Source of the DNA: Octopus sinensis
Lineage: Eukaryota
DNA length: 64,000 nt
NCBI RefSeq assembly: GCF_006345805.1
Contig: NC_042997.1
Location: 147,250,001-147,314,000 of the forward strand
Direction of reading: 5' to 3'
Below are positions 854 to 64,000 of the stretch, in pieces (the first letter of the stretch is position 1; each line of letters opens with the position of its first letter). Under the pieces are notes generated by a model, which did not search any database, was not told the origin of the DNA, and saw nothing but the letters and a program-made list of their open reading frames with translations. The translations under genes and the position numbers were made by a program.

Positions 854-1152
854 GGCGGTGAGCTGGCAGAAACGTTAGCACGCCGGGCGAAATGCGTAGC
901 CGTATTTCGTCTGCCGCTACGTTCTTAGTTCAAATTCCGCCGAGGTCGACTCTGGTTTTCATCCTTTCGGGGTTGATAAATTAAGTACTAGTTGTGTACT
1001 GGGATCGATCTAATTGACTGGCCCCCTCCCAAAATTTTCGGGCCTTGTGCCTAGAGTAGAAAAGAGGTCGACTTTACCTTTCATCCTTTCGGGGTCGATT
1101 AAATAAGTACCAGTTATGCAGCGATGTCGTTGTAATCGACTTAATCCCTTTG
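854..1152 (+). mobile_element. SINE family A, full head + core + tail A, followed by a second core fragment
   Basis: Head ggcggtgagctggcagaaacgttagc...gttcaaattccgccg, core catcctttcggggttgataaattaagtac, tail ggccccctccc...ctagagtagaaaaga; a second core starts at about 1065. Confidence 0.9.
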
Positions 1153-13362: not shown

Positions 13363-13506
13363 ATGTAATCATAATACACACACACACAGCTAGTTCATTT
13401 ATGCAAATTATCATAAGCTGTAACAGTCCACTATTCCCGTTGCATGTCTGAATCTTATATCAGCTTGAGACAAGGTAGGGCATTTACTCTTGTGATGAAA
13501 CCTATT

Positions 13507-13687
13507 CTTTTCTACTCTAGGTACAAAGCCCGAAATTTTGGGGGAGGGGGCTGATCGATTAGATCGACCCCCAATACGCAGCTTGAACTTAATTTATCGA
13601 CCCCGAAAGGATGAAAGGCAAAATCGACCTCGGCGGAATTTGAACTCAGAACGTAAAGACAGATGAAATACCGCTAAGCTCGGCTTA
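13507..13687 (-). mobile_element. SINE family A, 5'-truncated, tail A, with TSD
   Basis: Flanked by gtgatgaaacctatt and gtgatgaaacttatt (15 bp, 1 mismatch); core gaccccgaaaggatgaaaggcaaaatcgacctcggcggaatttgaac. Confidence 0.9.
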
Positions 13688-40260: not shown

Positions 40261-40620
40261 ACCTATTTCTTTACTACCCACAAGGGGCTAAACGCAGAGA
40301 GAACAAACAAGGACAGACAAACGGATTAAGTCGATTATATCGACCCCAGTGCGTAACTGGTACTTAATTTATCGACCCCGAAAGGATGAAAGGCAAAATC
40401 GACCTCGGCGGAATTTGAACCCAGAACGTTACAGCACACGAAATACCGCTAAGCATTTCGCCCGGCGTGCTAACGATTCTGCCAGCTCGCCGGCTTTAAA
40501 GGATGAAAAGCAAAGTTGACTTCTGCGGAATTTGAACTTAGAACGTAAAAACGGACGAATTATTACTAGGCATTTCGCCCGGCATGCTAAAGGTTCTGCT
40601 GCCAGCTCACCGCCTTAAGA
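40261..40620 (-). mobile_element. SINE family A composite (partial copy + full copy with tail B), with TSD
   Basis: Flanked by taggtacaggataat and taggtataggataat; two tRNA-like heads. Confidence 0.9.
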
Positions 40621-47080: not shown

Positions 47081-47528
47081 AAAACAATATTAATAATTAA
47101 TGTTTATCTCTGCCAAATTCAACTGCCCGCATGTTTCGCTATTATTCTTACCTCACCAACAAAGTCCATTCTTTATCGTACTTGCGAAAGTAGTGATAAA
47201 AGAGTTAGTAAGTGTGGTTCCTTTTTATAGGAGATGGAATGGAGAAATGCTTTGTGATTTATTTCTTAACTTTAGACTTAACTCTAGCTTCCATGAAATA
47301 AGCCACAATCATATACTAAGCAGATTTAAACGACTGTGACATCTCTTGTGCACGTCCATGGCCTTATTACACAGGGAGATTAAGAAGCTCAATACAACAT
47401 AAGGTATGACATTTAAGAATTAGAGATATTTTGATCTTTACTGCTTAACTGAATTCCGGGAATTACCATCTCAGTTTAACATAAGGTTATTTTGGTCCCT
47501 ATTCCATTCATTGGAATATTGACATAAT

Positions 47529-47927
47529 ATTTTCTACTTATAGGCACAGGGCCTGAAATTTGGGGGGAGGGGCCAGTCGATTAGATCGACTCCAGTATGC
47601 AACTGGTATTTAATTTATCGATCCCGAAAGGATAAAAGGCAAAGTCGACCTCGGCGGAATTTGAACTCAGAACGTAAAGACAAACGAAATAACCTGTTTC
47701 TTTAATACCCACAAGGGGTTAAACATAGAAGAGACAAACAAGGACAGACAAAGGTATCAAGTCGATTATATCGACCCGTGCGTAACTGGTACTTAATTTA
47801 TCGACCCCGAAAGGATGAAAGGCAAAGGCGACTTCGGCGGAATTTGAACTCAGAACGTAACGGCAGACAAAATATCGTTAAGCATTTCGCCCGGCGTGCT
47901 AACGATTCTGCCAGTTTGCTGCCTTGA
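47529..47927 (-). mobile_element. SINE family A dimer (head + module with tail B + module with tail A) inserted as one unit
   Basis: 14-bp TSD aatattgacataat at 47515-47528 and 47928-47941. Confidence 0.9.
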
Positions 47928-48651
47928 AATATTGACATAATGTTGAATAGATGTAAAGCCATATTCTTCTATAACTTCCCCAAAGCCATAAATGTTGTAT
48001 AAATGTATCAGCTTCAGGCGGAAATTGTACCTTATGAAGGGATTCATGTTAATATGATTTTATCTCTTGTCCTGCAGCATTTGCTCAAATCATTAACACT
48101 CGAAAGAAAGAAAAGGAAGAAAATACGATGAAAGATTGGAATCTTTATGATTTTTTCATCAAGAGTAATGTTAGGTCTTTCTTGAGCTTAAATTGTTTTC
48201 TATTCAATTGGTGATCGGGAGTTGAGTGAACTGGAGCAAGTGTTTTGCCTAAAAGCACAACGCATTTTAAGGCCCAGGAATCGAAATCATGGTCTTACGA
48301 TCGTGAGTACAGTATCTTAACTACTAGGCTACGCACCGTATCCTTTTCCTAAGAGTAAATGAGGAGAAAATATTTAAAGCACCTTCAGCTGTTGATACAT
48401 GTTGTGGATTAGTGCAAAGTTCGTTTCATGAAACCAAATAATCAAAATTGAAGTAAAAGCAAGTGGAAATCTAACGCGGAATACATTTTATTTTCACACT
48501 GGGAGGAAAAGCGACCGAGATTGATAGAACAAAATCCTCACACTGGAAACCGAATGTTTGAAACAAATTTGACACCACTAAAGTCACCCCGAGGACCATC
48601 TCATTGTGTTAAAGTAGGTGAATAGATTGTCTACAATCTAATAGTAGGAAT

Positions 48652-48926
48652 TGTTTGTTCCTTCTCGAGCCATGCCTGGCTCATAGGGCCGGTTTCTCGG
48701 ATTCCGTGGCGTATAGGTTCCCTGCGCCAGTCCATCGCAGGTGAGCTGCAAGACACAGGAGGAAATAGTGAGAGAAAGTTGTGGCGAAAGAGTCAGTAGA
48801 AGTTCGCCTTCTGCCGGAGCTTAGGTGTTTCGCTCATAAACACACATATCGCCCGGTCTGAGATTCGTACCCGCGATTCCTCGACCGCGAGTCCGCTACT
48901 CTAACCACCAGGCCATGTGCCTCCAC
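48652..48926 (-). mobile_element. tRNA-derived SINE family D (V-like segment), full length with TSD
   Basis: 12-bp TSD aatagtaggaat; head ggaggcacatggcctggtggttagag...gggtacgaatctc; cctgcgatggactggcg; tail atgagccaggcatggctcgagaaggaacaaac. Confidence 0.85.
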
Positions 48927-49827
48927 AATAGTAGGAATAGTTCCTTTAAAAGGCTTCCACATAATTTCCGTCTAGATACTTTCCTAATATGCTGTAAAAT
49001 AGAATCGGACATAAAAACTTCACGTTTTCGAAGCTAACACTTTCAGTCATACAGCCATGTCTGCACCGATAGATTGGATCCATAAAAGGATGTGAGTGTT
49101 AGTAATTTTTATTGACTCAGGGTAGATGAAAGCGTCATTTAGTCACGTTATTTGATATATTAATTATTGAAAAAATAATTCAGAACCACGCTACACTGTT
49201 TTAGCTGTTTTTGGCTCCTTATCAGAAACATTATCAGGATTTGTCACTAAAGAAAACATCTAAATATTTCATGTTAAATATTTGATTATATAACGCTTTC
49301 GTTGTTTTGTATTTAAATCTGAGAGGTGGGGAAGTGTCCATAGCTTCCCAGAGTGGAGGTTGTCGATACAATTAATGTTCAGCTTCAGTTTCTTTAAGCT
49401 TAATGTCTGTAGGGAAAACAATGACATGAGCGATGTTATGGAGAAGGGGTTGCAGTCATAAGAAAAGAAGTTTTGGCCAAGTGTATAATGCTGGAATTTG
49501 AGGAATTGAGAGATATTATTGTGGTGATAGAGATAGTATGAATGAAGTGTTGACCTGAGAAGTAGTATACGGTTTGATAGCTCAGAAGAGCATGAATTAT
49601 CATGTTGCACTAATTTTTTCTTAAGTATAGGTACTAAGTTATGGTGGCGTGCTGGCAGAATTGTAATCGCGTCGGACAAAATGCTTAGCGGCATTTCTTC
49701 CGACTTAAAGCTCCGAGTCCAAATATCTGCGGGGTCGACTTTGCTTTTCATTTCGCACATACATAAATATATGATCACCGTTTATATTATATAAATAACA
49801 ATGATTACTAATATTTTATCTCTACAA

Positions 49828-50035
49828 AGGCGGCGAGCTGGTAGACACACCAGCACGCTGGGCAAAGTGTTTAGCGGCATTTCCTCCGTCTTTACGTGCT
49901 GATTTCAAATCCACCGAGGTTGAATTTACCTTTCATCCTTTCGGGGGTCAAAGAAAATAAGTACCAGTTGAATACTGGAGTCAATGTAATCGACGTTTCC
50001 TCAAGATTGCTAGCCTTGTGCTACAATTTGATATC
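49828..50035 (+). mobile_element. SINE family A, full length with TSD
   Basis: 18-bp TSD aatattttatctctacaa at 49810-49827 and 50036-50053. Confidence 0.9.
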
Positions 50036-50102
50036 AATATTTTATCTCTACAATCCACGAATTGCTTGACTTCAATGTCGTGAAAGATAATTCAGCGATA
50101 TA

Positions 50103-51348
50103 CAAGGGTGGTATCAAAATGTTCCCGGACTAGTTCTATAGCGCGCCAACAGATGGTAGCACATAGTTGCATGCGAAATGAGAGCTAGCAGTGACCTTCA
50201 TGAGGCAGTGTACCGAGCGGTATTGTTGTGTTTACTTCGCAAGTTGTGAAAGTTTGTGATTTTGTGATCACGGGTACGCTGTATTCTGCGATTTTGCCTC
50301 GGACAGGAACAAAGAGCCGACGTGAAATTTTGCGTTAAACTTAGGATGTCTGCTACAGAAACATTGAGCATTTTTCGGCAAGCTTACGGCGACGAGGCAA
50401 TGGCTCTAGCACAAGTTTCAAGTGGTACGGGCGCTTCAAAAGCGGAAGAACGTCTCTGAAAGACGATGAAAGATCTGGAAGAGTTTCCACGAGCGTCACC
50501 TTCGGAAATGTGGAGAAATTTCATCAGCTTGTGCATGAGGATCGTCAGAGGACAATCAACGACATTGATAATGTTGGTTTGTCGTGTAGGTCTGTGAAGG
50601 CAATCTTAACGCCTGAATTAAACATGTGGCGTGTCTCTGCCAAGTTTGTCCTCCACCTGCTAACCATTGCGCAGAAACAACAGCGCGTAGAAATCTGTCA
50701 AAATCCCCATCCTTCATGTCGTGGACCATCAACGGTGACGAGAGTTGAATCTACTGGTTCGACCCTGAGATGAAGCAGTAGTCGTCACAATAGAAGAGCC
50801 CTTCATCTCTACGACTGAAAAAAGCAAGACAACCGCAGTTCAATCAAAAGAATGCTCTTTGTTCTTTTCTTTATATCCACAGTATTGTGCATCAAGAATT
50901 CCTCCCCCAGGGCCGGACCGTCAATCGAGAGTCCTACTACGACGTTTTGAAGCGTTTGAGTGTGGACATTCGGCGAAAGTGACAGGATCTGTGATGTGCG
51001 AATAATTAGATTCTTCACGACGACAACGCACCCTGTCACCGAGCTCCCCTCGCTCGTGCGTTTCTCGCCAAAAAGAAAATGGCATCGTTTCCGCACCTAT
51101 TCGCCAGATTTAGCACCTTCACACGTCCATCTCTTTACCAAGATGAAAATGCAGCTAAAAGGTCGCCGATTTAATACCGTTGTCAAAGTCCTCGACTCGC
51201 TTACGGAAAATGACCTCTTAGCCGAATTTCAAAAGCGACAGGTGCATTGCTGTGCAAGGTAGCTATTTTGCAGCAGATTATGTTAAAACTTAGGTAAATA
51301 AGTTATTTTTTAGTAAACATAGTCCGGGAACTTTTTGATACCACATCG
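50103..51348 (+). mobile_element. Mariner (DD34D), near full length, inactive
   Basis: TA-flanked TIRs caagggtggtatcaaaatgttcccggacta and tagtccgggaactttttgataccacatcg; fragments SLKDDERSGR, RVSAKFVLHLLT, HDDNA, YSPDLAPS..LFTKMK.QLKGRRF; many frameshifts. Confidence 0.9.
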
Positions 51349-52109
51349 TAACTAATGTAAAATTAAAAAAAGGTATAACTATCTATATAAAAACAACCCC
51401 ATTTATCTTCTATTTCAAGATTGTGAATCTTACCATCTTTAAATCACATCTTATATTTTCTGAAAAGTACCTCTGAATATTCAACAATATGACAGCAGTC
51501 AATATAACTCAAATACAATACAATGCAATATTTACTATGTTTGTGTAGGTGTGCGTCTGGTCTGTTCCAACCTGAACTAGTTACCTCAAAAACATCCAGC
51601 ATCTGAGATGAAATCTAACCAATGTTTATAAATATATTAGTCCTCATAAGAAATCAATAAAATTTGTGAAATGCAACAATAAAAAAAATAAGGCTAGATT
51701 TAGGTTGTGGGGTGTTTATTAAGAATCTTTTAAGAGTATTCTCCCAAAACGTATTGCGGGAGTTGTTTGGTTCTATTGAAAGCAAGTAGTTTGTCATGTT
51801 AATCGAACAGAATGCATTCAAAATCTGTTTTTAATGAAATAATGCAAATTGAACGTGAGATATTCCAGTTACATGCAGCGTGATCTCTGAAAAATGTTAT
51901 GGAAAACAGAGAACGCAGATTTAACTGTGTTTGCCCGGAAGTAGCAGCATAGCAGGGAATATACTTCTGGTATAGAGAAGAATTAACGAAGGAAATATAA
52001 CATAACTTTGAATTATTACTGAGTTAATAGGTCGTATGTCAGAAAGTGTCCTTAAGAGACTCAGATGATTTATACCTTTAAAATATCTTTCGTTAAAAAA
52101 TTTACTTAC

Positions 52110-52154
52110 CTGACAAACTGCCGGAGCCCTGCTTTCGTAAATACTTTCTGATGT
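52110..52154 (-). CDS. Candidate 45-nt symmetric (phase 1-1) micro-exon, xIRKYLRKQGSGSLSx
   Basis: Perfect donor CAG|GTAAGT, T-rich tract + AAG acceptor, length divisible by 3, stop-free, inside about 0.9 kb of repeat-free sequence. Confidence 0.35.
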
Positions 52155-52311
52155 CTTTATGCACAAATACAAAAACGTTTGGAATAAAACGTAACAATCA
52201 CATGGAGAATGGTGTTATAATGAGATTACGGGTCCTTCTAAGGTATTTGTATTCGGCTCGCTTCTCACACTTTTCCCTGACTTAGTTGGTATCGTTCTTC
52301 TAAATCGTATA

Positions 52312-52529
52312 CAGTAATCCCGCATCTATCGCGGGTGTTACGTCCAAAATCCCGTGATAGGTGAAAATCCGCGAAGAAGAAACAGTACTGTACTGTATAT
52401 TTTTTTTATTGTTTTTATAATTTGTATATATGTGTTTTATTATAAATTCAAAACAACACCACCGAAGAATCAACGTAAGCTAAAATAATAAGCCGCGATT
52501 GGTGAACCGGATATGGCGAGGGATTACGG
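52312..52529. mobile_element. pogo/Tigger-like MITE
   Basis: TA|CAGTAATCCCgcatctatcgcgg ... ccggatatggcgagGGATTACGG; internal ccgcga repeats. Confidence 0.7.
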
Positions 52530-52684
52530 CACTGCGTACCGGCCGGAATGCAACACACAAGTAAAAGTAAAAACTGAAAGTGTTTTGGGCATTCTTTGAA
52601 CTTGTTGTTGAGTATTGGTCTTGAAAATATTTTGGAAAAGCATGAGAGAGATTTAAGCTAATGCCTATTTATATAATTTTTAAC

Positions 52685-54189
52685 TGTTGTGTCTGGGGAA
52701 ACTCATTTACATTTTGTGCCTTATAATTTAATACACTCACCGGTAAAATTTCCACTTATTTCTTATTTTTATTTTTCTAAAATTTTCGTTGCGTCTTGCA
52801 ACCTTTTCAATAGTCTTGTATTTTAGGAAAATAAAAATAAGAAATACGAGGGGCGTTCAATAAGTAATGCCCCTGACCCACTTCCCATAGCAGTAGAGCA
52901 ACGACACTTGGTACAGTTATTAGTCTTTTCCTACATAGGAACTACCCAGAGTTATGCATTTCTCCCATCGTTTGATACAGCTCTGGAGACCGTTTTTGTA
53001 GAAGACCCCAGCTTGGTCCTCCAACCACGACGTGACTTCAGAAATCAAGGCTGCATCATCTGGGAAACGCTTTCCTTTCAAAATCAACTTCATGGCTGGG
53101 AAGAGGTGAAAATCAGAGGATGCAAGGGGAGGAGTTCATAGCTGCACGCTTGTGCTTCTGATCTTGCGACACGCGAGTTGTGGACCGGAGCGTTGTCCTG
53201 CAGGAGGAGGATGCCTTTGCTGATCTTGCCCCGCCTCTTGATTTTGATAGCTTCTCTTAATTTCCTCAAAAGTGAAGCATAATAGGCTCCTGTAATTGTG
53301 GTACCCTTTGCCAGGAAATCTGTCATCACTACTCCGTCCTGGTCCCAGAAGACTGAGCATAACCTTGCCAGCGGAGGGCTGCACCCTTGCCTTCTTTGGA
53401 GGAGGTGAGTCACGGTGCTTTCACTGCATTGACTGAGCTTTGGTCTATGGATCATAGTGATGGACCCAGGTTTTATCCTGTGTGATCAGTCTTTTGAAAA
53501 ATTTTGACTCATCTTCTTGGCACATCTCCAAATTCATCCTCGAGCACTCAACGCGTTCTTGCTTCTGGAAAGGTGTGAGCAACATGGAAATCCATCTGGC
53601 AGACACCTTTTGCATATGCAAATGGTCATGAATGATAGTTTCCGCAGACCCGGTACTAATCTTGACCTTATGGGCTATTTGGCGAATAGTTATGCGTTGA
53701 CTTTCCAAAATGGCAGCCTCAACTTCACGGACAGACGTCTCATCAACGGCAGAAGTGGGGGACCAGATCTGGGAGCTGTTTCCACAGAGTTCCGACTATG
53801 TTTGAATTCACAATGCCAGCGTTTTACAAGGTCATATGATGGGGCATCATCACCATAAGTTACTCTCATTTCATCAAAAGTCTCCTGTGGTGTGCGTCCT
53901 TTCAAATTCAAAAACCAGATCACTGCTCGACACTCAACAGGCTCCATTTCACACTTGACTCAGTTCAAACACCTGTAAATCAGAAACCATAATTAGTTCA
54001 GAGCTGTAATTCGCCACTTAATCTATAGCGGTATACGTAAGTGTACATGCAAAATTACAGCTACGTCAAACAACTGCAAGTGGGTCAGGGGCATTACTTA
54101 TTGAACGCCCCTCGTAAGTGGACATTTTACCGGTGAGTGAGTTAAATTATAAGGCACAAAAAGAAAATGATTCTCCCCAGATACAACAA
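52685..54189. repeat. Inverted repeat (arms about 100 bp) whose right arm is split by a mariner
   Basis: Left ttttgtgccttataatttaatacactcaccggtaaaatttccacttatttcttattttt; right aaaaataagaaata[mariner]agtggacattttaccggtgagtgagttaaattataaggcacaaaa. Confidence 0.85.
52847..54114 (-). mobile_element. Mariner (DD34D), full-length outline, perfect 37-bp TIRs, transposase broken
   Basis: cgaggggcgttcaataagtaatgcccctgacccactt at both ends with TA TSD; ORF pieces MEPVECRAVI..., KVSARWI..LLT, ITQDKTWVHHYDP, LLQDNAPVH; the YSPD motif is deleted. Confidence 0.95.
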
Positions 54190-54350
54190 AATATGCTTCA
54201 ACACACGAGATCTTAAAGAATCTTGCAAACCAAATCCCAAAACGAAATAGCTTTTAACTATTTGCTGGAAACTCATCGAGACCTGTGGCTGAGTTTAAGT
54301 TCAATTAATTTATGAATGGTATTGAACTTTCATTATTCATAGCGACACAT

Positions 54351-54384
<34 letters not shown>

Positions 54385-54699
54385 ATGTGCGCGCGTGTGT
54401 GTATATAACGCACACACACACACAACACACACACGCTCTCACATACACACATATACACACACACATATAATTTAAAACAATTTGATTTAGCTCTATGCAA
54501 GTTTAAGTTTCGTGAGCTTCTAGCAGGTGCCTGTCTCTTTCAGGCTTAGATTACTGAATGAAGATGCATGGAGAGGTATGCACGTATGTATGTATGTATG
54601 TATGTATGTATGTATGTATGTATGTATGTATGTATGTATGTATGTATGTATGTATGTATAGATGCATGTATGTATGTAGATATGTCTGCATTTATATAT

Positions 54700-56092
54700 G
54701 TATGCCATTATTCAGTTTTATTTCAAGAATTCTTGCCAATAGAGAAAGAGCCAGTTTTTAACCTAGATCAAAGGCTCTTCATTCGAATTTCAATATCAAC
54801 AACAGGGCATTTTTGTATGCATGTATGTATCTGTATGTGCAGATTTCTATGTTTTAATTTATGTATGTCTTATCATGCATATACTTGTGTATCTAAACAT
54901 GCTCATATATACTTAAATGATAAACTTCTGGAAAGTTTTGCAGATTTTTACAGTTGCAGTAATACAATAGATCTGTAGTCTTCGAATCAACTTTCTCTCT
55001 TCTGGTTTTGAGAAGTATAATTTCTCAAGATTGGTATTTACGCAATGTGTTACATATCCCAGTGCCCCAATAATTACAGGTATAAACCTGAATTTGTAAT
55101 CTAGATTGAGCAACTACAGAGTTCTCAATAGTTTAGCGTAGGTATTCTCTTTTTCACTGATCTTCAGCTTTACGTTAACATCCGCTGGGAAGCTAATTTT
55201 CACAACTGTACATAGTTTCTTTTCTATGCCAAACACTTATATCAGGCCTGTTGTGCTTAGATTTTATTGAGCTTTTCACTAGGGCATTCCACTATTATTC
55301 AGTTTTAGTATGAGTGGATATGGCTTCAACCATACTGTGGGTTCTTTTTTCTTGGTCCTCGGGGTTATCCTTCCGACAGATTTTATTATGTAGTTTCCTA
55401 GCTACAACATCATATTTCATCAGTAGATAAAACCGTGGTGACATTTTCAGACAACTGCTTATGATGTGGATGATATCTTCGGCGTTAACTCCACAAAGTC
55501 TACATCGGTTGTCACATTTTAAAGCTTTTCCTGCATCTCTATCCCTTTTATGAATCAGGTATTTGGTTGATATTTCCTGCTCCTTGATTGCAAACGCATA
55601 CCCTTCAAAGTGCGACTTCTTTGGGCATGCATTCCAGGTTATCAGACAAGGAATGTTGCCCAAGGAGCTGCCTTCCAAGTATTATGATGTTACCGCCCTC
55701 ATGTACGCAAACTTGGTCAACGGATGCACTTCGACACTTGGTGATTAAAAGATGTTGCTGAAGGGCAATGATACGACGTTAAAAAAATGTTCTGTATCGA
55801 TGTTAAGCCTCTGCCGCCTAGTCTTCGTTTTAGGTAGTGTAGGTCTACGTCACTGTTTATGTGGAAGTTATGTGTGCTGGTAAGTATTTTTCAGATTTTC
55901 ACATCAATGGCTCGGATCTCATCAAGTGTCCAATCAAGCAATCCAAATGTTGGTATGAGTACTGGCACTGCAAGCACATTGTGGGCCACTGTCTTACTGA
56001 ATGCAGAGAGTTCTGATGTCCAAATTTTCTTTATTCGACTGTAATGTTCTTTAGTGACACGTGTTTTGTTATAGGTACCATTATAAGATATA
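54700..56092 (-). mobile_element. R4/Dong-like LINE, 5'-truncated and degenerate
   Basis: RIKKIWTSELSAFSK...AVPVLIPTFG, CRLCGVNAEDIIHIISSC (CCHC), FIPVIIGALG; its 3' UTR runs into (CATA)n. Confidence 0.85.
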
Positions 56093-56137
56093 TTACACAC
56101 ACACACAAACACAAACACACATTTATGTATGTATATA

Positions 56138-56542
56138 TTCTTTTACTTGTTTCAGTCGTCTTTGACTGCGGCCATGCTGGAGCCCCGCCTTGACGGGTTT
56201 TCGTCGGAAAAATCGACCCCAGGATTTATTTTTTAAGCTTAGTACTTATTCTATCAGTCCCTTTTGCTGAACCGCTATGTTACGGTGACACAAACACGGC
56301 AACACCGGTTGTCAAACGGTGATGGTAGGACAAACACAGACATAAAGACACACGCACACATTGATATACACACATATGTGACGGGCTTCTTTCAGTTTCC
56401 GTCTACCAAATCCACTCGCTTGTCTCTGGTCGGTCCAGGGCTATAGTACAAGACACTTGCCTAATATGCCACGTAGTGCGACTGAACCCAGAACCATGTG
56501 GTTGGGAAGCAAGCTTCTTGCCACACAATTACGCCTGCGCCT
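56138..56542 (-). mobile_element. SINE family B, full length (second partial copy at 56590-56760)
   Basis: Head aggcgcaggcg...gtggcaagaagcttgcttcccaaccacatggttctgggttcagtc; CORE-like ggcaagtgtcttgtactatagcc; tail ccagcatggccgcagtcaaa...ctgaaacaagtaaaaga. Confidence 0.9.
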
Positions 56543-57596
56543 ATATATATTCATATATTATATACATATTCTTTTCTTATCTACTCTTTTAGACATTTCA
56601 GTCATTTGACTGCGGCCATGCTAGAGCACCGCATTTAGTCGAAGAAATCGACCCCAGAACTTATTCAACGAGTCTCTTTTACCGAACCGCTAAGTTACGG
56701 GGACCTAAACACACTAACATCGGTTGTCAAGCGATAGTAGTGTGACAAACTCAGACACACATACACACACACATACATACATATATATATATGTGTGTGT
56801 ATATATACATATACATACATACATACATACATATATATATGCACACGTATGTGTGTATATATTTACAGAACAAGAGAGAGACGGAGAGAGAGGGGAACGG
56901 AGAGGGAGACAGAGAGATAGAACGAAAGTTTAGGAACAGTGTCACTAGAACACATATATTTTCTGTAATCACACATTCTCAGACTTTCATGTTGAGATAA
57001 AAAAATTTAACAATATAACTAATTTAATATAAATATTGAATTTATATTAAATCTAAACATTTATCTTTCGCTTCACGAATGTGAATGTAACAAACTTTAA
57101 ATCCTAACTTACATTCTTTGAAAAGTACTTCCTAGAATTCAACAAAAATGGCTACAATCGATGTAATTCAATGAAAATACAATGAAAAATATGGATGTGC
57201 TTTGAGTGAGTTTGTGTAGATGTCTGTGTATATTTGTACGTGTTGGAGACTATTTGTACGTTTGTTTGTTTGTTTGCGCGCGCGTCTGTGTGTGTGTGTG
57301 TGTGTTTGTGTGTATGGAACATTATGAGAGCAGTGGTGCTTGAGATAAGCGAATACTTGTTCAAGCAACTTAAAACAAAGAATGGCATTATCTGCTATTC
57401 GGTTTTGGAAACACTGAAGGAAACAATAAAGAAAACAAAACTATAATGTTGAAAGTAACAGCAGGACATGAGGCAAACATTTATGTTCTGGAAATTCATT
57501 ACAAACAAATATCAATTTTAATTCACTATTTTCCTTCAATTGTCGATTGTGTTTATTTAGTGCTATTGTCTTCTGCAGATAAATATTTCCTCCTTC

Positions 57597-57664
<68 letters not shown>

Positions 57665-58317
57665 CATTATTGTATACTTTCTTTATTGATGTTGAAACTA
57701 AGTTTGCTTGCTCGTGTTATCTTTAAGATAAAAGGAGAAAATATATACGTCTGTTAATCAAATAATGCTATAAACTGCTTCCTGTACTCTGTAATGAAAA
57801 TGTATCACTCATTGGTTCGGAGAAAGAAATATTGTATTAGATAGCAATATTTATAATTACTTTGGCATGTTTATGTTAATCCTTCGCTTTGTATACATTC
57901 ACTTCGTATACATTGTCAAGTAAAGTAGGAAACGTTTAATCAGAAATATATACATTAGGGTAAACGGCCTAGTCTGTCGAATAAGTATGTATTTATTAAT
58001 CTTGTTTTATCTTTTAAACCCAAATTACACACAAAAATGTAAAGTAAAACGGTGTAGTTTGTCTACCTAATCATACGTATTAAATGTATTATACCTATCT
58101 TTATTCCGTCTAAGTTTTTTATCGTCTCAGTTTATTAAAATGTCTCTGAGCAACGGCTGAACAAATATTTAGGAACACACAGAACACTGAACAGTGAATA
58201 CAAGAATAATTTCTCACGGAAGGAGAAAAGTTTAGATATTGTTGTTGCTTAGTCACTCGTTATCCATGAATAATAATAATAATGACAGTAATAATAATAA
58301 TAATGATCATAATAATA

Positions 58318-58377
<60 letters not shown>

Positions 58378-58413
58378 TAATAATAATAATAATGATCATA
58401 ATAATAATAATAA

Positions 58414-59975
58414 TACAAGTACCTAGGGGTAATTGAAGGGAACGGAATAAGGCATTCAGGGATGAAGGAAAGGATCAGGAGCGAATGCTATCGAAGAGTG
58501 AGAGCAATACTCAAGACAGAGCTGAATGCAAGAAACAGGATCGAAGCGATCAATGAATTAGCCATACCAGTCGTGACTTACAGTTTCAATATTGTTAACT
58601 GGTCAATTACTGAAATATGTCAGCTCGACAGAAAAATAAGGAAACTGTTGACAATGCATCAAATGCACCACCCTAAGGCAGATACAGAACGACTCTATCT
58701 GCCAAGAAAAGAGGGAGGCCGTGGTCGTTTGCAACTGGCAATAACAATGAAGATTGCTACAATTGGCCTAGACACCTACCTGAAAAACTCTGAGGACTGG
58801 ATGTTAAAACTTGTCTCAAAACATGAAAACAAGAAAGCATCATACTCAGTCACAAAACAGGCAAAGGAATATCTAAGTGAATTCCGAATACAACCAATTT
58901 CGGAATTAGAGATAGATATACAAGAAACAAGCACAGAAAAAGCTAGGCGCATGAAAACCCGTGCCAAAACTGCGGCCTTAGATATTCTGAATAATAAATG
59001 GCAAGAAAAACCTCTCTATGGCAAATACCCAAAGAGAGCGAATAATGCAGATATCGACAAAGCCCTGACCCATCAATGGCTAATGGCCTCTGGCTTAAAA
59101 TCTGAAACAGAGGGGTTTATCATAGCAGCTCAAGATCAATGCCTACCAACAAGAAACTACCAGGCCAACATATTAAAGAACGGCAGTAGCCCAACATGTC
59201 GTGTATGCCGACAACAAAATGAAACCATTGATCATGTTGTCTCCAAATGCAGTCTTCTAGCGCCTACAGAGTACCTCAGTAGGCATGATAGAGCTGCACA
59301 ATATATTCACTGGGTAATTTGCAAAAACCTGGATTTGCCCCATGAAAAAAACTGGTGGGAACACAATCCACCTCCAGTGCTTGAAAATGACCACATCTCA
59401 CTCCTCTGGAACTTCACCATTCAAACTGACAGGAAGATAGATGCAAATAGGCCAGACATCATATTGAAAGACTTCAGACAAAGAACATGCCTCCTCATTG
59501 ATATGACTGTCCCAATCGATATAAACGTATCTATCAAGACCTACCAAAAACTGAGCAAATATAAAGATCTTGAAATAGAAATCAGCAAAATGTGGAAGCT
59601 GAAGACTAAAACAATACCTGTTATCATAGGTGCCCTGGGAATGATAGCAAAAGGGACTGATTGCTACCTAAGTCAGATACCAGGAAACCCCAAAATGGCA
59701 GAAATTCAAAAGATAGTGCTCATGGGAACTGCTCATATTCTACGCAAAATACTCTCTATGTAATCCCAAGGTTTAAAACAAACTTTTTTTATTTTTATTT
59801 TTTATTTTTTTTATATTTTAAAAAATTTTTATGTATTAGACATTCACTAGTACAACACCAAAAAAAAAAAAAAAAACCAAATATATGGCACAGAACTTCC
59901 AACCTGTTGTCTCTTGAGGTCTCTGGGTGAGACTTGGAGCCAACTTGTACAGACATAAAGCAAAAGTCAAACATA

Positions 59976-59976
<1 letters not shown>
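58414..59976 (+). mobile_element. R4/Dong-clade non-LTR retrotransposon, 5'-truncated, inserted in (AAT)n
   Basis: Starts in frame at YKYLG (end of RT); (AAT)n on both sides (58268-58413 and 59977-60046). Confidence 0.93.
58462..59763 (+). CDS. R4/Dong ORF C-terminal part: post-RT region, CCHC zinc knuckle and restriction-like endonuclease
   Basis: 433 aa uninterrupted: RLYLPRKEGGRG, CRVC...ETIDHVVSKC, RHD, NRPDIIL...LIDMTVP, KLSKYKDL, IPVIIGALG. Confidence 0.92.
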   Translation: MKERIRSECYRRVRAILKTELNARNRIEAINELAIPVVTYSFNIVNWSITEICQLDRKIRKLLTMHQMHHPKADTERLYLPRKEGGRGRLQLAITMKIATIGLDTYLKNSEDWMLKLVSKHENKKASYSVTKQAKEYLSEFRIQPISELEIDIQETSTEKARRMKTRAKTAALDILNNKWQEKPLYGKYPKRANNADIDKALTHQWLMASGLKSETEGFIIAAQDQCLPTRNYQANILKNGSSPTCRVCRQQNETIDHVVSKCSLLAPTEYLSRHDRAAQYIHWVICKNLDLPHEKNWWEHNPPPVLENDHISLLWNFTIQTDRKIDANRPDIILKDFRQRTCLLIDMTVPIDINVSIKTYQKLSKYKDLEIEISKMWKLKTKTIPVIIGALGMIAKGTDCYLSQIPGNPKMAEIQKIVLMGTAHILRKILSM

Positions 59977-60047
<71 letters not shown>

Positions 60048-60048
<1 letters not shown>

Positions 60049-60250
60049 CCATTCTACTAAAGGCACAAGGCTTGATATCTTGGAGGTGGGTGCAAGTCGA
60101 TTACATTGACCCCAGTGCTCAGCTTGTATATATTTTATCGACCCCGAAAGGGCAAAAGACAAAGTCGACCTCGGTGGAATTTGAACTCAGAACGTATAGA
60201 CGGACGAAATGCCACTAAGCATTTTGCTCATCGCGCCAACGATTCTGCGT
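60048..60250 (-). mobile_element. SINE family A
   Basis: ttctactaaaggcacaagg tail, tttatcgaccccgaaagg core, gaatttgaactcagaacgt B-box region. Confidence 0.85.
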
Positions 60251-60494
60251 GCAAATATTGATACGCTGCAATACCACATGCAGAATACGAAGCATCTATT
60301 TTTTTTTAATTTTACAATTGTAAAATAAGTTGAATATATTCCAAATTCGGTAATTGCGACCGAATCAAGCCGCACCCCATACATTTGTGTGTGTATGTGT
60401 GTGTGTGTATATGTGTGCTTATGCGTGTGTCTGTGTGCATATATGTGTGAATGAGTGAGTGAGTGTGTGTTGTATTTCATACACAGTCATACAT

Positions 60495-60750
60495 AAAATG
60501 TCAAATGCCTTTTGTGTGAATTTGGTAGACGGAGACTGTATGAAAGTGTGTATGTGTGTGTGCATAATGTTTGTGTTTGTCCCCGCACTGTTTGACGACC
60601 GGTGTTGGTTTGGTTACGCTCCTCCCCACTTTTCCACAAACATCCGATACTAAATTTTAAAAAAGCATAAGTACTGTGGACGATTACTCAACTAAACCCT
60701 TCAAAACTATACCCCAGCATGACCGCAGTCTAATAACTGAAACAAGCAAC
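60495..60750 (+). mobile_element. SINE family B, 5'-truncated
   Basis: gtgaatttggtagacggagactg...ttgacgaccggtgttgg...ccccagcatgaccgcagtctaataactgaaacaag. Confidence 0.75.
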
Positions 60751-61003
60751 TAAATACAACATTATGTATACATAAATGCTTATATGAAATGAAATGCATG
60801 TTAACCTGGTCTCCGAAGACGTTCAGCTATGGAGACCTGCTTGAACTTCTGATCAAGAACATTCATGGCATCACTGAATAAACTTGCTTTATTCCATCAG
60901 TTTTCTTTGACGAATAAGACAGACTCTTTTAGGCTGTATGTCGATGCCTCCCTCTCATTGATTTAGAATTATTACATGTATACGTACACATATATACATA
61001 CAT

Positions 61004-61037
<34 letters not shown>

Positions 61038-61040
61038 GAT

Positions 61041-61079
<39 letters not shown>

Positions 61080-61288
61080 CATATATATATAAGACTGTCG
61101 AGGCGTTCGGCTGACCGTGTGTGTACTATTACTCTATTACAGCTGACCTAGGGCTATATAAGGACAACAAAGTACATATATATGTGTATGTGCGCGTCTA
61201 TATCTCATAATATGAGGTGTTTGTGTGTGAGTGCGCATTTACTTTACATTAATATATATGTTTACCAACACGGACTATATGTATATAA

Positions 61289-61380
<92 letters not shown>

Positions 61381-62556
61381 TATATTACAGAGAAAGCTGA
61401 CCTCTCATAGTAAACGCATGAAGTTCAAAGTTAACTATTTAGATATGTTAAATGATTGTGTAGTAGAATTTTATGTAAAATTGAAGGGTAAAAAGAAATA
61501 TTCAATTGAATTTCAATACTTATTTTTGAATTTACTATTGGTAGACCTTCATATATCTTTACAATAATAACAACCTTACAGATGAAATCCCAGCATTTTT
61601 TGAGTTATACTAACCAGACAGCCTTATCTTGACGTATTAGAAATCAGTGCAGGAAATTGCATAATTAGTATGTTAAAACTAACGATTGAAAGGAATAGAA
61701 AAGATAGATATTAAACTCTCGGCCTAAGTACTGTTTGAAACTATGAAATTAGTTTCCAAATTGCAATAATGCAGAGCAGAGTGGCATTTATATAACGTTG
61801 TTTTCTCGTAGTTTAATGAACTTTGCAACAACAAACCGAAGTACAGAGAATTTTCTAAAAGCTAGTGATTTTACCATCGAAAATAACATCTCATCAAGAA
61901 ATGAAAGCTACATCGAACATCATTAGTACAGACTTGAAAAGAATTTTTTTTAAACGATTTTTGCTACTACTTACCATTTCTGTGATGTCGAACAAATTGC
62001 TGTCTCTAAACCCATTTAGAGCTGACTTATTTCCTAATATTGGGTACGACATCAACAAGCAACTTGTATCACTCAGCTTTCAAATAAAAGTGTTCCCCCG
62101 TGTTATTTGTTTAGAACAATATGATTTAGACATAAATGAGTAAGCGGAGAAGAAAATAAAACATTTGCTGAATAAAAAAAAAAAACAGCAAAAAACATAC
62201 GAACAAAAAACACGAGAAAACAACAGCAAAAAAATTTGGATTACACCGGTCTGTAGTTCTCATCTTTTATTTTCAGAATTATACTTCAACAAACCTATCT
62301 TATACAGGAAAAAAAAAAAAAAAAAAAAAAAAAATAACAAACAGCGCAATCGTATTGGTTTTTCTGTTCACATAATGAACAATTACGAGCGCCATTTTAT
62401 CACAAATATAAAAAGCTTATCAGTTGTAAGATCACATTTAGCCATTGACATTGCGCAACGCTACGCTAGTGACAGAATAGAAACCATCGACATTTAGTTT
62501 CCCTCTCCAAGAACAGAAGAAACAAACTATTATTTTCTTCAAATAACGCAGTTGTG

Positions 62557-62595
<39 letters not shown>

Positions 62596-62689
62596 TCTGT
62601 ATATGTTTATATGTATGTTACGCATACGCACCCATATATATGCATACTTAATGCATACAAAATACATACATAATTCCTTTATCCATTCA

Positions 62690-62860
62690 GCTGAGACGAC
62701 TTGACTGGCGTCGCGGTGGGCGTCTTCAAAACGATTCTGCCAGCGTCTGTTGCTGCTTACTTGATTAAAAAAAATGCTATCCAAGAAGTTATACCGTACC
62801 CACCGCATTCTGATATAGCACCTTCAGATTAGCACCTTTTTCGGTCGCTCTCTAATTGTA
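62690..62860 (+). mobile_element. Mariner transposase fragment
   Basis: IPYPPHSDIAPSD*HLFRSLSN. Confidence 0.65.
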
Positions 62861-63302
62861 AAGTCAATACCACCATGACCGATATCCAAAGTACAGTGGA
62901 GAAGGTTAGCCACTGGATTTGGTTAAAAAGAGACGATGAGCAATGGCTAAAGAAATGTTGAGCTTTATTTAATAACCATTTGATCTAGCAAGCGGGGCCT
63001 CATATCAGTGAGGGGAGCCGGTGCGCATTGATGCCGTCGAGAGGTAGGCCCCAAAACGGCGCGAATTCTCTCCTGATGACCCCATACACTTGCTGGCTTC
63101 CGGTATGCGGAGTTCTTGACTGGTAGCACTTTCATGTACGAGTTGTATGCAAGACATCAAGGCATTTCGTTCAACAACGGCGTAGAAACGAGAATGTCGA
63201 TCGATCAAATCTTTAACTCGGGGCTGTGATTTTCCGCAGTCAAGGTCTCACCAAGCATAGGGAACGTTGGCGAGAAGTCTTGAACGATGAAGGAGAGTAT
63301 AG

Positions 63303-63878
63303 CCATTTCTTTACTACCCACAAGCGGCTAAACAGAGAGAGGACAAACAAGGACAGACAAACGGATTAAGTCTATTATATCGACCTCAGTGCGTAACTGG
63401 TACTTATTTAATCGATCCCGAATGATGGAAGGCAAAGTCAACCTCGGCGGAATTTGAACTCAGAACGTAGCGGCAAACGAAATACCTATTTCTTTACTAC
63501 CCACGAGGGGCTAAAAACAGACGGGACAAACAAGGGCAGACAAACGGATTAAGTCGATTACATCGACCCCAGTGCGTAACTGATGCTTATTTAATCGATC
63601 CCGAAAGGATGAAAGGTAAAGTCGACCTCGGCGGAATTTGAACTCAGAACGTAACGACAGACGAAATACCTATTTCTTTACTACCCACAAGGGGCTAAAC
63701 ACAGAGAGGACAAACAAAGACAGACAAACGGATTAAGTCGATTACATCGACCCCAGTGCGCAACTGGTACTTATTTAATCGACCCCGAAAGGATGACAGG
63801 CAAAGTCGACCTCGGTGGAATTTGAACTCAGAACATAACGGCAGACGAAATACCGCTCAGCATTTCGCCCAGCGTGCT
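63303..63878 (-). mobile_element. SINE family A with three tandem ~184-bp modules
   Basis: Units 63303-63485, 63486-63669 and 63670-63853, joined at gaaatac|ctatttc; partial tRNA-like head at 63854-63878. Confidence 0.92.
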
Positions 63879-64000
63879 GATTTCTTTATTTGAGCATTCA
63901 GGCTCTACATAGAGGAGACGATAGACGACAGACAAAACAGCACAGTGGGGATATAAAACATAGAACGAATGAATGATTGATGAATTTTGATAATGAAAAT

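What the first reader, a model, noticed from the sequence alone, without database searches (positions are those of the whole stretch)
47529..63878. SINE with a variable-number, precisely bounded GT...AG module
Seen: on the SINE sense strand the structure is head(...gcttagcg) + [GTATTTCGT...core...pyrimidine-rich tail B...GAAATAG]n + GTATTTCGT...core...tail A. n=0 at 854 and 13507. n=1 at 47529-47927, where a single 14-bp TSD shows it moved as a unit (junction slightly diverged). n>=3 at 63303-63878, with 184-bp units. The copy at 40261 ends just after the same AG|GT junction. Removing GT...AG restores the monomer exactly. Each module also carries its own B-box-like motif. Inference: either an internal satellite-like expansion (SINE-derived satellites are known in other animals), rolling or template-jumping reverse transcription of a 184-nt circle, or a portable intron-like cassette of the AG|GT tandem-duplication type. 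Caveat: Pol III transcripts are not normally spliced.
Basis: partly seen in the sequence, partly recalled or inferred. Interest (0 to 1): 0.7.

Follow-up and report, generated by a model that had tools for sequence, protein, structure and literature searches.

The report
SINE that inserts into itself
The repeated 184-base 'module' is real and occurs at about 20,000 identical joints in this animal genome, but it is not an intron: a short jumping gene lands at one GGTA spot inside its own copies, the joined copies are likely copied onward as a unit, and the long stacks likely grow afterwards by local duplication.

Summary
The structure is real: the joint is found exactly 19,854 times genome-wide, and 119 of 127 tail-to-SINE joints sampled fall at head position 48. 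The splicing or circle reading fails. Tail B is the natural 3' end of a free 231-bp SINE bounded by target-site duplications (TSDs) and shares sequence with LINE 3' ends. 'GT' is part of a GGTA target motif present in both TSD copies. Full-length copies sit inside resident SINEs with TSDs, at position 48 and at an antisense GGTACTT site (446 exact joints). Other fixed joints lack GT-AG (positions 15 and 24, a 65-bp head repeat). Dimer units are no more alike than random units; arrays of five or more are homogenised in blocks. Best reading: self-targeted insertion, read-through copying of the composite, then local duplication. The exact partner LINE was not found and no RNA test was possible. 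The scan already reported this family on other DNA of this genome (five notes); those notes moved my reading and I re-tested their core claim.

The parts
47695..47927 (-). Tail-B SINE monomer (consensus positions 1-231): tRNA-like head with A-box and B-box, core, LINE-type tail ending GAAACA
   Evidence: (B1-229)
47529..47694 (-). 3' part of a tail-A SINE from head position 48 onward (the host remnant in the composite)
   Evidence: A50-210; A-type GTCTTTACG variant
47515..47528 (.). Target-site duplication, copy at the 3' end of the dimer
47928..47941 (.). Target-site duplication, copy at the 5' end of the dimer
63671..63878 (-). First unit of the array, tail-B SINE positions 24-231
63487..63670 (-). 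Second unit, positions 48-231 (184 bp)
63304..63486 (-). Third unit, positions 48-230; array ends with tail B, no tail A
63879..64000 (-). 3' end of a different retroelement (ORF1-like remnant upstream, outside the window) with a tail homologous to tail B, joined to the SINE head at position 24
40264..40498 (-). Tail-B monomer preceded by a head fragment (40501-40614); followed by GGTATT running into its TSD
854..1066 (+). Tail-A monomer (followed by a core/tail-B fragment to 1153)
13500..13679 (-). Tail-A monomer with a shortened head

Best explanation
A 231-bp tRNA-type SINE with a LINE-like tail inserts at GGTA target sites, including one at position 48 of its own head, and the resulting joined copies are likely transcribed through and copied onward as units, with long arrays likely lengthened later by local DNA duplication. 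Step 1 (shown): tail-B copies insert with 13-23 bp TSDs that start with GGTA for the T219 tail variant; resident SINEs carry this motif at position 48 (sense) and in the core (antisense), and nested insertions with TSDs exist at both. Step 2 (inferred): transcription starts at the inserted copy's own promoter, meets no T4 terminator in either consensus, runs through tail B into the host's 3' part and is reverse transcribed from the last tail, giving head-[48-231]n-(tail A or B) with a fresh outer TSD; each new round of nesting adds a unit. Step 3 (inferred from sequence patterns): unequal exchange or slippage between the tandem units makes the long, blocky, homogeneous arrays and keeps the joint exact. 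The mobilising enzyme is inferred to come from a site-preferring LINE group that shares the tail.
For: Free tail-B monomers: 59 simple complete ones, 35 with a called TSD. TSDs 13-23 bp, median 16.5; the left copy also starts G,G,T,A in 21, 20, 20, 23 of 26 T219 cases (4 of the 26 were picked by GGTA patterns). Flank starts with G in 46 of 74 T219 vs 1 of 40 C219 terminal copies, p=3e-11. Antisense joints: 446 exact; 9 of 15 fetched hold a full monomer, 7 with a visible TSD (read by eye). Sense nesting: 48 exact matches; of 20 distinct loci among the 30 fetched, 6 show host head + TSD + full copy + TSD + host remainder (L142, L160-L164) and 6 show the nested composite itself moved with a foreign TSD (L141, L145-149, L150, L154, L166, L169). 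Composites ending in tail A carry B-type heads: A19 in 22 of 29, G43 in 7 of 29, against 9 of 46 and 0 of 46 in tail-A monomers. Positions 55-64 of the two dimer units are not TSD-like copies (15 shared variants vs 11.4 expected, p=0.11, 48 dimers). No T4 run in either consensus. Eight of 8 copies of an RT-bearing LINE family share 30 nt of tail B at 93-97% and sit at one site of a second SINE.
Against: No LINE carrying the whole of tail B, or sitting at position 48, was found (tight exact patterns). Nested loci with a duplicated head are rare (48 exact) next to 19,854 seamless joints, so most joints must be secondary copies, which is inferred rather than seen. Some loci look grown in place with the host head kept (L063 has an old head; L309 shares a private variant across the joint; head divergence tracks the last unit in tail-A composites, rho 0.42, p=0.025; small excess of sharing at positions 65-96, p about 0.02-0.04 uncorrected). 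Sequence alone cannot tell whether long arrays grew after insertion or by repeated template switching during it. The sample is about 1-1.7 Mb, mostly picked by patterns on one contig.
Confidence: 0.7

Rival explanations
1. One or a few ancestral dimers formed once; everything else is copying of multimer masters plus unequal exchange or slippage, with no continuing self-targeting.
For: Unequal exchange keeps the joint exact; long arrays are homogenised in blocks; the C219 tail variant is almost confined to last units and monomers (1 of 54 first, 1 of 64 middle, 21 of 37 last), as position-specific master variants would be.
Against: Independent nested insertions with host-specific TSD variants at position 48 (L161, L163, L164) and 446 antisense joints; many different unit pairings in dimers; a recurrent GAAATA-GAAATA joint variant typical of slippage at priming (most of the first 100 of 222 matches).
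Confidence: 0.14
2. Joints form on RNA or cDNA: the reverse transcriptase jumps from position 48 of one RNA to the 3' end of another or the same RNA, or rolls round a 184-nt circle.
For: Position 48 lies just 3' of the loop of a hairpin in the head, and GAAATA is complementary to TATTTC; units in some young long arrays are near-identical; template jumping could add to long arrays.
Against: Dimer units are as different as random units; 119 of 141 arrays have a head; antisense joints with TSDs cannot come from a sense circle; no ribozyme family and no hammerhead core; the head fold is only weakly better than shuffles (z -1.8).
Confidence: 0.12
3. The module is a portable intron-like cassette removed by the spliceosome at GT...AG.
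For: Removing the unit restores a consensus-like monomer; the tail is pyrimidine-rich; GT is present at positions 49-50 in 60 of 68 first units.
Against: GT is as common in monomers (57 of 71) and absent in the 47529 example; the pyrimidine tract and AATAAAGAAATA end are shared with LINE 3' ends; the G of 'AG' belongs to the target; GTATTT is a poor donor (established knowledge of the GTRAGT consensus); other fixed joints lack GT-AG.
Confidence: 0.02

Closest known systems
TSD1-(SINE)n-TSD1 arrays of the blood clam Scapharca broughtonii (PMC11481361; passages read)
   Same: First unit with a complete tRNA head, further units truncated at one head position, one outer TSD, 4-15 units.
   Different: There the inner units also lack their 3' tail and the passages seen propose unequal recombination; here every unit keeps a full tail and nested self-insertion with TSDs is seen.
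SINEU-3 and Tx1-Mar LINEs of crocodilians (PMC4494074; passages read)
   Same: A SINE with target preference for a repeat, likely through a site-preferring LINE; tandem copies from sequential insertion.
   Different: The target there is a DNA transposon and tandem copies sandwich a TSD; here the target is the SINE's own head and the composites are themselves mobile.
SINE-derived satellites of squamate reptiles (PMC10702118; first fifth of the text and passages read)
   Same: Tandem units cut from part of a SINE, variable number, longer arrays more uniform.
   Different: Those are linked to unequal recombination and likely subtelomeric sites; 'TSD' and 'target site' do not occur in that text. 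Here arrays are dispersed, often TSD-bounded, and seeded at one target motif.
Animal non-LTR retrozymes (PMC7229834; abstract and outline only)
   Same: Tandem units in the 170-400 nt range in molluscs and other animals.
   Different: They hold hammerhead ribozymes and give circular RNA; no hammerhead was found here and the arrays start with a tRNA-like head.
Octopus OR1/OR2/OK tRNA-derived SINEs (Ohshima and Okada 1994; not held; seen only as cited in PMC4824008 and PMC4758252)
   Same: Likely the same organism group and a tRNA-type head (resemblance recalled, not tested).
   Different: Sequences could not be compared; whether the multimers were described there is unknown.

Membership tests
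tRNA-derived SINE | Short interspersed repeat at high copy number | tested here: met
   71,281 exact tail-end motifs; 231-bp monomer
tRNA-derived SINE | Head with A-box and B-box, at least 60% identity to a tRNA | tested here: inconclusive
   Box-like motifs read from sequence; ARAGORN and Rfam find no tRNA; no tRNA alignment was run
tRNA-derived SINE | Variable TSDs and a LINE-related 3' tail | tested here: met
   TSD 13-23 bp; 30-nt match to LINE 3' ends, score 50-55 vs shuffled maxima 24-35
tRNA-derived SINE | Transcribed by RNA polymerase III | not testable with these tools
   No suitable RNA data
Spliceosomal intron / introner | Conserved GT donor and AG acceptor specific to the removed unit | tested here: not met
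   GT equally present in monomers, absent at 47529; G belongs to the TSD; non-GT-AG joints exist
Spliceosomal intron / introner | Removal from RNA | not testable with these tools
   A spliced product equals a genomic monomer; needs locus-resolved long RNA reads
Retrozyme (circular-RNA retroelement) | Self-cleaving ribozyme in each unit | tested here: not met
   Rfam at E<=10 gives only a chance snoRNA hit; no CTGANGA core on either strand
Retrozyme (circular-RNA retroelement) | Units in one array are copies of one circle | tested here: not met
   Dimers: within 0.109 = between 0.109
SINE-derived satellite | Tandem units from part of a SINE, at least four middle units, more uniform in long arrays | tested here: met
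   Arrays of 7-10 units (L062, L063, L072-L074); within 0.043 vs 0.094; the window's own array has only 3 units
SINE-derived satellite | Heterochromatic or subtelomeric clustering | not tested
   Joints seen on many contigs but no positional test run
SINE mobilised by a target-specific Tx1-clade LINE | Partner LINE shares the 3' tail | tested here: inconclusive
   Partial sharing with one RT family; no LINE with the whole tail; clade not tested by a tree, 'Tx1-like' is recalled and taken from earlier notes
SINE mobilised by a target-specific Tx1-clade LINE | Partner LINE uses the same target site | tested here: inconclusive
   No LINE end at position 48; but the LINE family and some tail-B copies use the same site region in a second SINE

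The most novel reading that the evidence does not exclude
The SINE's own read-through 3' extension chooses its target: tail variants that carry GGUAUUU home into GGTA sites and so into their own head, variants that carry AGAA go to AGAA sites and head position 15, making an RNA-steered, self-reinforcing route from dispersed SINE to satellite, shared with ORF1-only and LINE relatives that each own a different position of the same head.
Probability: 0.3. Interest if true: 0.72.

Novelty: new variant of a known kind. Interest (0 to 1): 0.42.

Why it matters
It gives a mechanism, with intermediates still in the genome, for how a dispersed SINE becomes tandem arrays: self-insertion at a fixed site, mobile composites, then local amplification. 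Published SINE arrays that I read are put down mainly to unequal recombination. The switch in target motif with a tail variant (46 of 74 vs 1 of 40) makes an old question testable: whether the RNA 3' end or the LINE endonuclease sets target choice. It also warns that AG|GT joints in such repeats will mimic back-splice junctions in circular-RNA screens.

Tried and rejected
RNA: no RNA holder listed on record; contigs of 4 runs laid on 47100-48400 were swamped by other family copies and cannot tell splicing or circles from genomic forms; not used as evidence. RNA-templated GGTA at the 3' joint: right copy matched the extension where the left did not in 2 positions, the reverse in 5 (26 TSDs), so no support. 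In-place seamless growth as the main route: not supported in 48 dimers. Age correlations among parts of 24 dimers: none significant. Search for a LINE at position 48 or with the whole tail B: 6, 222 and 96 matches, read by eye (all 6, first 100 of 222, all 96), none a clear LINE family. Ribozyme and tRNA scans negative. Papers: the 1994 octopus SINE paper and one octopus genome paper are not held; SINEBase supplements unavailable, so family membership in OR1/OR2/OK is untested and unseen supplements may bear on it. Searches that found no description of this self-inserting family: (open-access library only). The 12 more distant LINE relatives mostly end in AATAAAGA(A/G)AT (11 of 12) but their tail-B alignment scores (19-35) are not clearly above shuffles.
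Full report
Observation. 47529-47927 is a dimer inside a 14-bp direct repeat and 63304-63878 holds three tail-B units at a 184-bp period. The joint 29-mer occurs 19,854 times exactly in the 2.72-Gb genome, control 0; a tail-end motif that ignores what follows occurs 71,281 times, and about 36 of the first 100 listed continue into head position 48 (counted by eye). The organism is likely an octopus; this rests on recalled resemblance and on earlier notes, not on a call.

Anatomy. I merged 121 stretches (991,855 bases, mostly picked by patterns on contig 1, 200 kb unselected) and tiled them with two consensus sequences built from them. There are two monomers that share a head and core of about 165 bp and differ in the tail: B (231 bp) and A (213 bp). 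Multimers read B1-231, then (B48-231)n, then optionally A48-213; up to 10 units were seen. B is a free element: 59 simple complete monomers, 35 with a called TSD; 17 of 37 simple complete multimers also had one. So the 'module' is a B copy minus its first 47 bases, or, read the other way, the 3' remainder of a host. Of 127 tail-B ends joined to sense SINE sequence, 119 join at position 48, 5 at position 15, 3 elsewhere.

Why GT...AG is a coincidence. Free copies end at GAAATA. What follows is target DNA: in 26 T219-variant copies with a TSD, the upstream copy of the TSD also begins G, G, T, A in 21, 20, 20 and 23 cases (149 terminal copies examined, 40 with a callable TSD, TA-rich flanks left out, 4 of the 26 picked by GGTA patterns). 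Target choice follows the tail variant: flanks begin with G in 46 of 74 T219 and 1 of 40 C219 copies (antisense joints count as flank there); C219 prefers AGAA or TATA, and the position-15 joint reads AGAAACG. The pyrimidine-rich stretch matches the 3' end of an RT-bearing LINE family over 30 nt at 93-97% in 8 of 8 copies, and 11 of 12 more distant relatives end in AATAAAGA(A/G)AT. GT at 49-50 is as common in monomers (57 of 71) as in first units (60 of 68) and is AT in the 47529 copy.

Direct evidence for self-insertion. A tail joined to antisense SINE core at GGTACTT occurs 446 times exactly; 9 of 15 fetched loci hold a full monomer inside the host and 7 show the TSD. A host head followed by a second full head occurs 48 times; among 20 distinct loci fetched, 6 are textbook nested insertions at position 48, some with the host's own variant in both TSD copies and an older host (L164: host 78-86%, insert 96%), and 6 are such composites that moved again with a foreign TSD, some with 1-5 copies of a 65-bp head repeat that has no GT-AG ends.

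From nested locus to seamless multimer. Neither consensus has a T4 run, so a transcript from the inserted copy would run into the host remainder (inferred). This predicts B-type heads on composites that end in tail A, and unrelated units in dimers. Both hold: A19 in 22 of 29 and G43 in 7 of 29 composites against 9 of 46 and 0 of 46 A monomers; 24 dimers differ inside as much as between loci (0.109 vs 0.109); positions 55-64 are not shared as a TSD would be (p=0.11, 48 dimers). Against a single route: L063 keeps an old head, L309 shares a private variant across the joint, and head divergence tracks the last unit in tail-A composites, so some arrays likely grew in place.

Long arrays. All 8 arrays of five or more units are more alike inside (0.043) than outside (0.094), with subsets of identical units and two-block patterns; the window's three-unit array is not (0.092 vs 0.101). 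This fits later local duplication, though template switching among units at insertion is not excluded, and some indels may be assembly noise. 119 of 141 arrays begin with a head, which a 184-nt circle does not contain. No ribozyme was found.

Partner. The LINE family that shares part of the tail sits in 8 of 8 cases at one site of a second SINE with a TSD of about 16 bp, and a few tail-B copies use that same region. I found no LINE with the whole tail or at position 48, so the earlier notes' claim of such a LINE is not confirmed here. At the window's edge a further element with a tail-B-like end and an ORF1-like remnant is joined at head position 24; six of 30 related loci, the closest ones, are joined at that position (read by eye).

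Comparison. Works like: target-preferring SINE mobilisation (SINEU/Tx1-Mar, PMC4494074, passages) combined with SINE-derived tandem arrays (PMC11481361, passages; PMC10702118, first part and passages). It is not a retrozyme (PMC7229834, abstract) and not an intron. No description of a self-inserting SINE of this form turned up; the 1994 octopus SINE paper could not be read. Earlier notes of this scan reached much the same reading on other pieces of this genome; before seeing them I favoured joining during reverse transcription, and the tests moved me to DNA-level self-insertion.

Verdict. Real, genome-wide, and explained by known retrotransposon chemistry in an unusual arrangement: new variant of a known kind, interest 0.42.

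Noticed in passing
window 63879-64000 (-) and L077:1-830: 3' part of a retroelement with an ORF1-like remnant directly followed by a tail-B-like end; its closest relatives (L307-L310, L312) are also joined at position 24 of this SINE's head; 30-45% amino-acid similarity to the ORF1 region of the LINE loci.
   Followed up: partly
L220-L227: RT-bearing LINE family inserted 8 of 8 times at one site in the A-box region of a second tRNA-type SINE, TSD about 16 bp; some copies are full length, others start about 1.4 kb later at a shared point.
   Followed up: partly
L143-L150, L154-L159, L167-L168; G000:C3430:1366-2212: A 65-67 bp head repeat (positions 1-63) in 1 to about 10 tandem copies in front of a full SINE, some copies 100% identical.
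   Followed up: partly
L228, L230-L232: Related LINE family with AATAAAGAAATA end inserted into (TC)n microsatellites.
   Followed up: no
SINE head, consensus positions 1-90; window 40400-40500 (-): The head can fold as a long hairpin with its loop just before position 48; z-score only -1.8 for the window copy.
   Followed up: partly
window 62650-63303: GC-richer, coding-like stretch next to the array's last tail, no match among the fetched loci.
   Followed up: partly
window 58413 onward (+): 449-aa open frame that looks like a LINE reverse-transcriptase C-terminal part of another group.
   Followed up: no
L077:6163-7434 (+): 423-aa open frame that looks like a Penelope-type RT/GIY-YIG fragment (recalled resemblance).
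   Followed up: no
genome-wide: Joint variant with a doubled GAAATA before GGTATTTCG makes up most of the first 100 of 222 matches.
   Followed up: no
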